Shown: positions 42,001-48,000 of the stretch, piece by piece
Position numbering within the stretch: the stretch's first letter is position 1
How the letters are laid out: every line of letters starts with the position of its first letter
Source of the DNA: Felis catus
Lineage: Eukaryota
Assembly: GCF_018350175.1 (NCBI RefSeq)
Contig: NC_058368.1
Location: 72,046,001 to 72,110,000 of the forward strand
Direction: 5' to 3'
DNA length: 64,000 nt
Position numbers and translations under genes: made by a program
The notes under the pieces: model-generated
Told to the model about the DNA's origin: nothing
What the model saw: the letters and a program-made list of their open reading frames with translations, nothing else
Databases searched by the model: none

Positions 42001-45000
42001 TGTTGTATTATCCCCAGCAACGTGACCTCTGAAACGAACACCTGCAATGTTACTGTGCAGGTGTTTCTCAGATGGCCCTTAGTGATACATCCTCCCTGGT
42101 TTTCATGCCCTTGTGCAACCCAGAAGTGTGGGCAACTTGCTTCTGGCCAGTGTAAGGCAAATGGGATGGGATAGGTCACAAAAGACCTGCCCAAGCAGGC
42201 TGCCATGTCGTGAGATGTTCTGTGGAGAGATTCCCTTCTTACGGAATGAGGGTGGTCTTCCATTAACAGAGCATGAGGAACCAAAGCATTTATTTAACTG
42301 CTAGTGAGGCACTAAATCTTATTAACAACCATGAGAGGGGTGCCGGGGTGGCTCAGTCAGTTGAGCGTCAGACTCTTGGTTTCAGCTCAGGTCATGACCT
42401 CATGGTTTCATGGGTTCGAGCCCCACATCAGGCTCCATGCTGAACAGTGTGGAGCCTGCTTGGGATTCTGTCTCCCAATCTCTCTCCTCAACTGCCCTCA
42501 ACTCCTCAACTGCCCTCCTCAGGGCAGTTGCCCTCCTCAAACTCCTCAATCTGCCCCTCCTCAACTCATGCCCTCTCTGTCTCTCTCAAAATAAATAAAT
42601 AAACTTAAAAAAAAAAAAAGACTGGTGACAGTGAGCTAGTTAGGGGATTCCTCCCAGGCAAGTCAAAAGGCCTGCAGCCTTATGAGAGACCCAGCTAAGC
42701 CACACCCAGGTTCCTGACTGAGGCTGTGAGATTAATCTGTGTTATTTCAATCACCAACCTTTGGAGTCACTTGTTACACAGCAATTGGCAACTAAGACAG
42801 TTGTCATCGTTGTCTTAAAGTCTTCAACAACCCTATTGCTCTTCAGAGTAAGACTAAGACAAGAAGCTCAGCATGACTTCAAAGTCCCATAGGACCTGCC
42901 TCATCTTTTACCATCGGGGACCCCCCCACCCCGCTCCGGCCAGTCAACCTCTTTGGTCTTTCAGTTCCTTGTGTGGGCCTCACTCCAAAAAGCTCTAAGA
43001 GAGCTGAGGTTGACTTAGTTACTGCTCACTTGTTACTTCGCCTTGTACACAGTAGGTGCTTAATAAATATTTGTGAAATGAGTAAATCGTGAAATATTGC
43101 GAAGATCAAACATTTTAATTTCTTTTTGGATCATTTCACGCTTATGAGGCACGGAAATAATCACAAATAGCACACACCGCATGTGTTTGAAATATGCTTT
43201 TCAAAGGGGAAGGTGATTTTATCTCCAGTGAGAATACTGTGCTACTCAAGAAATGGGCTGCACACCTATAACAGATGAGGCCCTGAGATAGTAATAAAAA
43301 AAAAACAAAACTGACATTGCTTCTTGCAGGTAGAAAATTTATACATCTTTATCTATAGTCTCTGTGACTGTGAAGGGAGACCTTCAAGCTTACATGAGGC
43401 AGAGCTGAACTCATTTCAATTTCTTAAATGGGAGATCTGATCTGTCCCTGGGAAAATGGTCCCCATACACGGTGTCTTATATGAATCTACTACCGAGCTG
43501 AAATAGTAAATAAGTAAGGATTTTGAGACTTTTACAACTTTACCAATAAGAATGCACACATCATTAAAATTCCTCAGTAATAGACCTAGTCAGAAGGAAA
43601 AGTATTTGAATATTCAATTAAGTTATATTTTGCCACTTTAAATTTTTCATTAGAATTTAGATGCCTTTTGGTCTCCCCTGAAGATAAAAGAAATACATTT
43701 TCAGGATGAAAACATTCACTTATTTGTTACCTAGAGAAAAAGCAAAGCTAATAGTATTGAAAATACACACCACGAACTTGAGGGACAGTCTAGCTTTCCT
43801 TAGGGGAAAGACCACAGAGTTGTGGTATTAGGATCTCATCATCTTCCCCTTATCTCTTCATGATGGCAAGTACTAGCAAGCCAGTTTCTTAGAAACTCCA
43901 TCTAGTGGTCTGATACAAAACAAATTGGTCTGCCTGCTTGTGTTCTGGAACTGGGACGCACAAGGCTTCAAGTGTCTGGTGAAAAATAATGAAGTCTTTT
44001 GTCTTGTCTGAGTGAGGAAATTCTCCATTATGCAGGCATGTGTAATCCCTTTATTCCTGCTCCCTGGAGGAGAATTACAGTGAGGCATTTTCCTTTTCCC
44101 AGTTGGGGTTAATGTTATGCCCTCTCTACCTTTGAAAGTAAAACAAGACTAGGACCCCTGACGATGATTCAAATGTGGGAATATTCTTCAGCAAACACAC
44201 ATTCCCAGTTGCAAAAATATTACCCCTGGTTTCTTGCCAAGCCTTTGAAAAAAACATATGAAAGATTGATTCTTTTTTTCTTCCTCTCTCTGCATTGCCT
44301 TTGTGCTGTGGAATTTCAATTGCCTCTTATATGACAGCTATATATATATATATATATATATATATATATATAGTCTTTTATGGAGGTGGAGGGAAGAGAA
44401 TCATGTCTTAAGAAATTGTCTCTATTTTTCTTGACATTTCTCCATCACAAATATTTTTAAATTGGCCCAAAGATTATGGTTATAAGAGAGATCTTTGGAG
44501 CTTTATTAGCCTTTAAACACCACTAGTTGTTTATAGAAATAGTAGCAGGGGGTCCTCGGTTTCTTTCTTCTCTCTCTCCATATCTTCTTTCTTAATGTTC
44601 CAGAACAAGGGTGTGGGAAAAGCCTGTACATTCTGTAATGAAAGAGAGAGGCCTATGAGTCTTCAAATTATTTTCATTCATTATAGAAAAGTTAGATTGC
44701 ATGAAACCATCTGGTATTAAGCGTAATTACCATCTAAAGGAACTGCAGTGTAAATCTGCAGAGCATTCCATTGGAGGGATTTTACTCCAACCTTGGGCTC
44801 CACAAGTTAACACACTGTAAAGTATTATCAGATGTTGGTTAATATAATGTAATCACATCGACAGAAAACAGGAAACCAGTCCTTCTGTGGTAATTACGGG
44901 AAACCGTGGCTGTAGAATGGTGTAAGAGAATGGGGGATGAGTATTTCCTGGAAAGGGCTCTCACCTGCCTCCAGGAGAGTGACAATGAGATCCTCCAAAG

Positions 45001-48000
45001 TGAAGACAACCGCGGACATTAACAGGTGAGCTCCTCTGTAATGGCCTCTTGCTGAGGTGAGGAAAAAGCTGCATTTTTATCGAGTGACTACCCCACTCCT
45101 TTGTGAATGGGCCCAGTCCCGAGTAAATGGATATGGCTCTTTAATAGCAACAGCGGGTTTGTTCTTTCCAGTCTTGTGCTATTCATAACAATGTTGTCAT
45201 AAGCACACATGTAAACATGTGGGCAACCAGAACCTTGTTGTAGACTGAAACATAAAAGAAGCCTTAGTGTCTTATCGTATGCAGGTATGATAAATAAAAA
45301 AGACAATCAGCTCGTGGGCAAGCCATGCCTTTAGTGCATCTATTAAAATTCAGCAAATAGAATGTCTGAAACCCCACACCACACTAGGGTTTAAATTTGG
45401 TAATGCTCCATCTGTCTCAGAAAAACGTAAATTACAATGTAAAGATTGAACTTTTTATTATAACAAAAATAAAATTTTGCAAATGTTGCAGAAACCATAT
45501 GAACCAATTTTTCTACTGAGATGAATTTTCTTATACTACTTATTGCTTTATGCTCCAATGATAAAAGAGTAAAAGAGAAACCCTGTTAAAATAGTTTGCT
45601 GCATCTGTTGGGTAAAATTTAATAGTAGCTCTCCTGATCCATAGCACAATTATAATCACTTTGTAATAATGTACAAATCATGTACAATCTCAACGAAATA
45701 TAACATATTTTGATTACCACAAATCAGGAAACAACTAGGAAAACGTCTTTGAAATATATTACTTTACTGTGTATGATAATGGATGTTAATTAGACTTCTC
45801 GTGATAATCATTTCATAATACATACAAATCTCCTCAAATTATTATGTTGTACCCCTGAAATTAATACAGTGTTATATGTCAATTATATCTCAATGAAACT
45901 AAGAAAAGTTCAAGGAAAGTTTGATTTAATTAAAAAAAATTTTTTTAATGTTTATTTATTTTTGAGAGAAAGAGAGAGCCAGAGCATGAGCAGGGGAAGG
46001 GCAGAGAGAGAGGGAGACACAGAATCCACAGAATCGGAAGCAGGCTCCAGGCTCTGAGCTGTCAGTCAGCACAGAGCCCAATGCGGCGGGAGAGGGGGGG
46101 CGGGCTTGAACCCGCAAACCGTGAGATCATGACCCGAGGCAAAGTCAGATGCTCAACCAACCGAGCCACCCAGGCACTCTGGAAAGTTTGATTTTAAAAA
46201 AGCAAAAATATATATATTATTTTGCTTAAATGAAGTTCTATTTGGCCTCTTTGCCTCTTTATGTTTTATACAAATGCATATACCCACAGATCTTATCTTC
46301 TCATTGCTCTCTGAATACACTTAAGTTCCATATACTTAACTTAGTCTCTGTATCTCCAAATGGTCTTTTTTTTTTAAATTTTTTTTCAACGTTTATTTAT
46401 TTTTTTGGGGACAGAGAGAGACAGAGCATGAACGGGGGAGGGGCAGAGAGAGAGGGAGACACAGAATTAGAAACAGGCTCCAGGCTCTGAGCCATCAGCC
46501 CAGAACTCACAGACTGCGAGATCGTGACCTGGCTGAAGTCGGACGCTTAACCGACTGCGCCACTCAGGCGCCCCTCCAAATGGTCTTTCAACTAGTCTAC
46601 AAGAGTTTTTAAATCTCATAAATAAGAAAAACCAACAGTGAAGCAGCCTTAATAGAATCACAGATAAATAGTTATGAAAATATCTAATATTTAATTACAT
46701 ATTTGATTAATATTCAATGTTTTGACGGTAATATATTCAATATTAATAATTAGTATTCAATACGTTAATATCTACAAATACATTACATATGTTAACAGAA
46801 TCTTTAATAAATTAGATGTTAATAATTTAATATTTTATTAATATTGAGTATATTAATAGCTGATACTCTGTTTCCCAAAAACTTTGGGTGATTCTTACCA
46901 AATGTTTGCCATGAAGAGTTATTGCTCTGTCAGGAGGCTGACCAAAACTCAGCTTCATGGGTACCTGTGCTTCTTCTCACCTGCAGGGTCCTTCTAGCAT
47001 CCTCCCCTCCTGTGCTGGAGCGCATTCCACTGAGCGGTTGACAAGTCTAACGGGAAGATCTGTGAGAGGCTACAAAGCACTCAGCCCCTCCAAGCGGTGC
47101 TAGTCGGGCCCAGAATGTGGGGCTGCAGGAAACTAACATGACCTCATCCAAAGCTGCTGAATTGCTAGGCTGAATGATGAAACAAGAATTTGAAAAGGAG
47201 AGCTTGTCAGATGGGAAGGAGCACTCGCGGGGTAAGATGCTAATGCTTTGCATTATTAAGCTCGCTTAGATTTCCATTTAATTGGGCCAGCTTCAGAGAG
47301 CTGGGAGCTCTGGGTCTAGACAGGGGAGGACAGAATAAGAATGAAGAGGGCCATTTGTCCTTTCCTCAAATTTCCCTTGTCATATAGCTAATGATGTGCA
47401 CAGGAACAGGTGGCCCCTTGGAGGGCTTCACAGGGGTTTAATTTGAACTCCTTCCTCTAGAAAACTCCACCATCTCCTCAGTCTCTGTAATATCAGGCTC
47501 ATCTGTCTTCCAGAGGAATGTGACCTAGATGCTTCTGTTCTAGAGGAGAGTCCAGGTGTCAGTTCATCTGTCCTGAGCCCCGGGGAGGCAGCCGTGGGAG
47601 AACAGGACCCAAAAGGCCAGAGGACAAAAACACTCTCATTCAGCCTACAGCCTATGAAAGAGAAGCCCTAGCTAAGTCCTCACCGCCTAGAAGTTGCGGG
47701 GCTCCAAAGTGATGCACACACCTAAGTTCCAGGTAGGCACTTACAACCCATGCAGAAGACAATGTCACGCTTGTCTCCACCATGGCAGTATTGTTCTTCT
47801 GCTAATGGTGCCTCTGAGGGCAGGTCTATGTTCTCTTCCAGCCATTCCTCATGCCCGAATCACCAGCCTCTCTTATCCTGCAGAGATCTTGATTTAAATC
47901 CTACTCTCACTCTTCCACCTGCCAAGTCAATCAGGCTCACCTTTACCAACACCTGTGACCATGCCCTCAACGTCCCACTCTCCCTTTTCTTTGCAACATG

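What the first reader, a model, noticed from the sequence alone, without database searches (positions are those of the whole stretch)
44965..45051. Hidden 87-nt in-frame cassette exon adding a 29-aa basic, Cys/His-containing insert to the NALCN DII-DIII linker
Seen: deep in the 18.9-kb intron (37387-56331) the minus strand reads ctttttcctcacctcag|CAAGAGG...GGAGGCAG|gtgaga. The segment is exactly 87 nt, matches the phase-2 borders of both neighbours and has no stop in that frame. Inclusion changes ...TKILRACTRQ... to ...[39 protein letters not shown]. The ORF track misses it. Established: the DII-DIII linker is cytoplasmic and contacts UNC79-UNC80 in channelosome structures. Recalled, unverified: a human isoform 29 aa longer than the 1738-aa form exists and may use this exon, so it may be annotated but uncharacterised. 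Inference: the insert (two SP motifs, CxH and HCH) could tune complex assembly, phosphorylation or redox/metal sensitivity.
Basis: partly seen in the sequence, partly recalled or inferred. Interest (0 to 1): 0.75.

Follow-up and report, generated by a model that had tools for sequence, protein, structure and literature searches.

The report
Optional NALCN exon splitting UNC80 grip

Summary
In detail: 45051-44965 (minus strand) is 87 nt, AG/GT-bordered, phase-compatible and stop-free. It is the only such strong candidate in the 18,945-nt intron; 5 of 200 simulated introns gave one as strong, none of 87 nt. It is probably known: variant numbering in clinical papers shows human RefSeq NM_001350748 carries 87 extra nt between residues 578 and 846, but I could not place them on this exon. 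Against a conserved function: a Camelus ferus gene model uses both borders but implies 68 nt, a frameshift that removes the Cys/His motifs, and its in-frame part is no better conserved than nearby intron (6 of 11 vs 26 of 41 codons). None of 142 linker-bearing NALCN proteins seen has the full insert. No junction-read evidence was obtained. The insert splits R731 inside the UNC80-binding motif UNIM-C, upstream of the autoinhibitory helix CIH; by a published pull model, inclusion would let CIH rebind and right-shift gating. Verdict: real-looking minor cassette exon, likely annotated, weakly constrained, with one cheap testable prediction. The scan had not noted it before.

The parts
44965..45051 (-). 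87-nt candidate cassette exon (phase 2/2) in the NALCN intron between the exons for residues 707-731 and 731-765 (intron 18 by inferred numbering); adds 29 aa at R731
   Evidence: both borders used by camel gene model P0037
45052..45090 (-). Acceptor region: possible branch point at about -36, a competing AG about 17 nt upstream, pyrimidine tract and CAG
44959..44964 (-). Donor site GTGAGA after CAG; rank 2 of 960 GT in the intron by my matrix
56332..56405 (-). Upstream constitutive exon (74 nt), residues 707-731, holding UNIM-C contact residues R717, K722, V726, I729, L730
   Evidence: contacts from bioRxiv 2021.12.20.473568
37285..37386 (-). Downstream constitutive exon (102 nt), residues 731-765, holding the end of UNIM-C (R737) and the autoinhibitory helix CIH (751-765)
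   Evidence: CIH

Best explanation
This 87-nt, in-frame, splice-site-flanked segment is likely a real but minor optional exon of NALCN, likely the counterpart of the extra 87 nt in human RefSeq NM_001350748, and its inclusion would put 29 residues inside the UNC80-binding motif UNIM-C, which is predicted to let the autoinhibitory helix CIH rebind the C-terminal domain and make the channel open less readily. Shown: anatomy, frame, insertion at R731 just after five mutated contact residues and before R737 and CIH; the human +87 nt somewhere between residues 578 and 846; a frameshifted 68-nt version implied in camel. From the literature: UNIM-C binding pulls CIH out because 10 residues cannot span about 60 A, and weakening UNIM-C right-shifts the G-V curve while surface expression stays. 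Inferred: the insert either breaks the second UNIM-C helix (Pro four residues in) or adds about 100 A of slack (35 to about 136 A); both routes give a UNIM-C-5A-like right shift. The effect would rest on length and position, not on the Cys/His motifs. Constraint is weak and lineage-dependent.
For: Splice anatomy and null. The only 87-nt AG-GT segment open in the required frame with positive scores between 33590 and 64000 is this one (2 listed). Human +87 nt: p.Phe875 in NM_001350748 is canonical F846, canonical 875 is Tyr; GRCh37 positions from two papers put NM_001350748 174 nt ahead of NM_001350750, which is 87 nt behind canonical; Y578C and L509S keep canonical numbers. A 2014 review reports unpublished splice events in this loop. 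Camel model P0037 picks the same acceptor (best of 1384 AG, 13 vs next 20 changes) and the same donor, so both sites are old and still look like splice sites. Position against UNIM-C/CIH; H2 segment R715-R737.
Against: No junction reads or spliced contigs were seen. The human insert is only bracketed to residues 579-846, and introns for 579-706 lie outside the window. Of 142 fetched NALCN proteins with the linker anchor 130 join the flanking exons directly and none has the full insert; of 13 mammal-type ones 10 join directly, 1 ends there, 2 diverge. The main mammalian RefSeq cluster was not among the 120 of 244 hits listed, so this is a thin test. Camel: frameshift and intron-like divergence. 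All 5 solved NALCN sequences keep canonical numbering. The gating prediction rests on one group's model and is untested here.
Confidence: 0.5

Rival explanations
1. It is a leaky pseudo-exon: old splice-like sites give trace inclusion, enough for annotation where the frame happens to be open, but the product has no physiological role.
For: In-frame part no better conserved than intron against camel (6 of 11 vs 26 of 41 codons, Fisher p 0.73) and far worse than the upstream exon (24 of 24, p 0.0014); two gaps of 10 and 9 nt; absent from all 142 linker-bearing proteins seen; no functional paper found.
Against: If the human +87 nt is the orthologue, exact length, frame and both sites survived in two distant lineages, which neutral drift would seldom allow (my rough estimate, a few percent). 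The donor is stronger than most constitutive donors of the window.
Confidence: 0.3
2. It is chance intron sequence that is never spliced in this species; the human +87 nt comes from elsewhere.
For: No RNA evidence in hand; 26 of 200 simulated introns give some in-frame candidate at looser cut-offs; human insert not located.
Against: Exact 87-nt match to the human offset (0 of 200 simulations gave 87 nt); camel predictor chose the same two borders.
Confidence: 0.08
3. It is a conserved regulatory exon whose own motifs (SP, CxH, HCH) add phosphorylation, redox or metal control.
For: The motifs are present and sit in a cytoplasmic linker described as a hub for UNC80 and SNARE binding.
Against: The camel version does not encode the Cys/His half in frame; no homologue of the peptide in protein, structure or atlas searches.
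Confidence: 0.07
4. What is kept is the splice event, not the peptide: inclusion lowers NALCN output, by nonsense-mediated decay where the frame is broken (camel) and by a damped channel where it is open.
For: Both borders retained in camel although the length is 68 nt.
Against: A second mammal-type model (P0130) seems to read through a weakened donor (weak evidence); no expression data.
Confidence: 0.05

Closest known systems
Human NALCN RefSeq transcript NM_001350748 (+87 nt, +29 aa)
   Same: Same gene, same net length (87 nt), insert within residues 579-846, which brackets R731.
   Different: Its insert sequence and exact position were not seen; orthology is inferred from length. The accession was first recalled, then found in three papers.
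Human NALCN transcript NM_001350750 (-87 nt, -29 aa) and the alternatively spliced exon holding Q642
   Same: Another 87-nt event in the same II-III linker.
   Different: A skip upstream of residue 654, next to UNIM-B, outside this window; not an insertion.
UNIM-C / CIH autoinhibition switch of NALCN (bioRxiv 2021.12.20.473568; also held as PMC9098444)
   Same: The insert lies inside UNIM-C (702-740) and upstream of CIH (751-765); predicted to work like the UNIM-C-5A mutant.
   Different: That work used point mutants of the 1738-aa form; the word isoform does not occur in its text.
STX1A-SNAP25 binding site on the NALCN II-III linker (PMC13109934)
   Same: The insert falls in the tested peptide 698-772, between predicted contacts R715/K722/V726/L730 and R761/R764.
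   Different: That interface is an AlphaFold model supported by cross-links; no splice form is discussed ('splice' 0 occurrences).
Invertebrate NALCN mutually exclusive pore exons (PMC3557258)
   Same: Alternative splicing of NALCN.
   Different: Tandem duplicated pore exons that change selectivity; this is an optional linker exon with no duplicate in the window.

Membership tests
Frame-preserving cassette exon | Canonical AG/GT with splice-site strength in the exon range | tested here: met
Frame-preserving cassette exon | Length 3n, phase match, no stop | tested here: met
Frame-preserving cassette exon | Junction reads for inclusion in this species | not tested
   No read-level result was obtained; only lists runs holding the (intronic) stretch
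Frame-preserving cassette exon | Skipped form exists | tested here: met
   10 of 13 mammal-type proteins join the flanking exons directly; solved chains have canonical numbering
Conserved functional alternative exon | Frame kept across mammals | tested here: not met
   Camel model implies 68 nt; indirect, from one predicted protein
Conserved functional alternative exon | Protein-level constraint above intron background | tested here: not met
   6 of 11 vs 26 of 41 codons unchanged; constitutive exons 24 of 24, 40 of 40, 40 of 40; small sample, one species pair
Conserved functional alternative exon | Splice sites kept in other mammals | tested here: inconclusive
   Both used in camel model; donor looks weakened in P0130 (weak)
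Orthologue of the extra exon of NM_001350748 | Same length and gene region | tested here: met
   +87 nt between residues 578 and 846
Orthologue of the extra exon of NM_001350748 | Sequence homology and same intron | not testable with these tools
   The human isoform sequence was not returned by any search
Exonised transposable element | Match to a repeat family | not testable with these tools
   No repeat library on hand; no second copy in the window, no Rfam match

The most novel reading that the evidence does not exclude
A regulated splice switch in some mammals that uncouples NALCN from UNC80-driven activation: 29 residues of slack let the autoinhibitory helix stay docked while the channel remains assembled and at the surface, and split the SNARE-binding site, giving cells a low-leak NALCN form that no structure or recording has examined.
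Probability: 0.2. Interest if true: 0.65.

Novelty: already known. Interest (0 to 1): 0.3.

Why it matters
NALCN sets resting potential, and small gains or losses cause CLIFAHDD and IHPRF1. All five solved sequences seen use the 1738-aa numbering. If the +29 form is expressed at useful levels, it is a natural test of the UNIM-C/CIH pull model and a possible splice-level dial on leak current. If it is trace splicing, the practical lesson is small: NM_001350748 shifts variant numbering by 29 and should not be taken as the main form.

Tried and rejected
Peptide searches for the insert found nothing: 1 candidate, none scored (the same tool gave 244 hits for a constitutive exon); camel junction region found only itself among 28 candidates; 1 hit among 1.84 billion representatives, an unrelated repeat protein; none in PDB; best atlas score 0.76. 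These blanks are weak because the main mammalian cluster never appeared. Metagenome scans for host DNA: 0 of 474 stretches confirmed; 0 of 48 pattern loci matched the window. No Rfam match. No whole genome is held. P0130: a whole-exon alignment was not distinguishable from random placements (score equal to the 5th best of 150); its first 21 residues place best at 44980 of about 18,900 positions but by a small margin (18.5 vs 19.5), so it is kept as a weak hint only. Nine non-mammal-type models that diverge at this junction show no likeness to the insert and were treated as prediction noise without further tests. The insert puts Q-R at positions 736-737 as in the native chain; noticed after the fact, 2 of 7 positions, not used as evidence. 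Earlier scan notes: none on NALCN.
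Full report
Observation. On the minus strand 45051-44965 is 87 nt, follows a pyrimidine tract ending in CAG and precedes GTGAGA; the intron 37387-56331 is 18,945 nt; both flanking borders are phase 2, and inclusion adds 29 residues without a stop. The gene is NALCN: the exon at 30114-29995 equals residues 880-919 of the solved chains (5 sequences matched), and a fetched NALCN protein maps exon by exon along the window. 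The species was not tested.

Chance. With crude weight matrices of my own (frequencies recalled, approximate) the acceptor ranks 17 of 1396 AG and the donor 2 of 960 GT in the intron; of 5 pairs within 2 bits only this one is in frame and stop-free. Its scores fall inside the range of 10 constitutive exons. Resampled introns gave an equally strong in-frame candidate in 5 of 200 cases (26 of 200 at looser cut-offs) and an 87-nt one in 0 of 200. The cut-offs came from the observed scores, so this shows 'unusual', not 'spliced'.

Is it known? Probably. Clinical papers cite NM_001350748 (3 papers). L509S and Y578C keep canonical numbers on it, but c.2621_2622ins is p.Phe875Tyrfs*2, whereas canonical 875 is Tyr and canonical 845-846 is Arg-Phe: an offset of +29. 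Genomic positions agree: chr13:101759922 is c.2408 (Y803) on NM_001350750 and 101759883 is c.2621 on NM_001350748; the two transcripts differ by 174 nt there, and NM_001350750 is 87 nt behind canonical Y832. So human RefSeq has a form with 87 extra nt between residues 578 and 846. A 2014 review mentions unpublished splice events in this loop. The only 87-nt AG-GT segment open in the needed frame in the part of that range inside the window is this one (2 listed), but introns for residues 579-706 are outside the window and I never saw the human insert. I put orthology at about 0.8.

Of 200 fetched proteins, 142 carry the linker anchor; 130 join the flanking exons directly and none has the full insert. 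Of 13 mammal-type proteins, 10 join directly, 1 ends there and 2 diverge. The main mammalian cluster was not among the 120 of 244 hits listed, so annotated mammalian isoforms were not sampled. One divergent protein is a Camelus ferus gene model (P0037, EPY72986.1) that continues SKRNLARASPFSVSTSEELTVEAG. Its 22 residues after the first fit best at the acceptor 45051 among 1384 AG sites (13 minimum base changes, next best 20), and better than all 150 random placements (23.75 vs 30.75). The first half follows the cassette's frame, the second half a shifted frame after a 10-nt gap, then a 9-nt gap, ending at the same donor; the model then jumps to intron DNA matching 43730-43606, which has stops in this species. 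So both borders are old and still look like splice sites, but the camel exon would be 68 nt and break the frame, and the CxH and HCH are not encoded there. In the shared frame 6 of 11 codons need no change, against 26 of 41 in the neighbouring intron piece (p 0.73) and 24 of 24 in the upstream exon (p 0.0014). This is one species pair, read through a predicted protein, and an assembly error cannot be excluded. The other divergent model, P0130 (unnamed), may read through a weakened donor, but the placement is marginal.

RNA. No read-level result was obtained. One search lists 20 runs that hold part of the intronic stretch, which says nothing on splicing. Inclusion in this species is open.

How it would work. 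The insert splits the codon of R731. Kang and Chen's preprint defines UNIM-C as 702-740, with contacts R717, K722, V726, I729, L730 and R737, and the autoinhibitory helix CIH as 751-765; they argue that 10 residues cannot span about 60 A, so UNC80 binding pulls CIH from the C-terminal domain, and they show that UNIM-C-5A keeps surface expression but right-shifts the G-V curve, rescued by CIH-5A. A second structure resolves R715-R737 on UNC79-UNC80. The window's residues match this numbering. Inferred: 29 extra residues right after L730 either break the second UNIM-C helix or lengthen the tether from about 35 to about 136 A; either way CIH could redock, so the included form would be a surface-competent, harder-to-open channel. 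The insert would also part the two halves of the predicted SNAP25 interface. This effect needs length and position only, which fits the poor sequence conservation better than a motif-based role. None of it is tested.

Rivals. Trace splicing without function (0.3) fits the camel data and the absence from sampled proteins; never spliced (0.08); motif-based redox, metal or phospho control (0.07); conserved down-regulating splice event with lineage-dependent outcome (0.05).

Literature seen. Passages: PMC3557258, PMC7200174 (its one supplementary table), PMC10838985, PMC8989190, PMC13109934, PMC7981314, PMC9741552, PMC11668739, PMC8544095, PMC13177645. Passages plus a named section: PMC4033012 (section 4, 68), PMC8986805 (section 8, 36), bioRxiv 10.1101/2021.12.20.473568 (section 8, 38; supplements not seen). 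No paper describing this exon or the +29 form's function turned up in ten searches, judged from listings; the library lacks most subscription papers, one search returned mainly non-NALCN papers, and supplementary splicing tables were not searched.

Verdict. A real-looking, probably annotated, minor and weakly constrained cassette exon. What is worth keeping is its position inside UNIM-C and the simple prediction that follows. Interest 0.3; already known as an annotation, uncharacterised as far as I could find.

Noticed in passing
window 43606-43730 (-): Intron DNA after a good AG that two mammalian gene models (P0037, P0130) use as a false exon; it has in-frame stops in this species. Used here as a neutral yardstick.
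   Followed up: partly
window 43925-43978 (-): Intron piece needing only 5 minimum base changes over 18 codons against model P0130; possibly a conserved non-coding element.
   Followed up: no
upstream of the window (human NM_001350750): A -29 aa human form lacks 87 nt upstream of residue 654 (T625 there is canonical T654), next to UNIM-B; the linker thus has two 87-nt events beside two UNC80-binding motifs.
   Followed up: partly
window 44339-44372, 50688-50720, 51633-51672, 54683-54711: Microsatellites and an A-rich tract in the same intron; not classified.
   Followed up: no
window 46981-47169 (-): Another strong donor at 46981 with two acceptors (79 and 189 nt); neither is open in the NALCN frame, so a possible poison-type candidate.
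   Followed up: no
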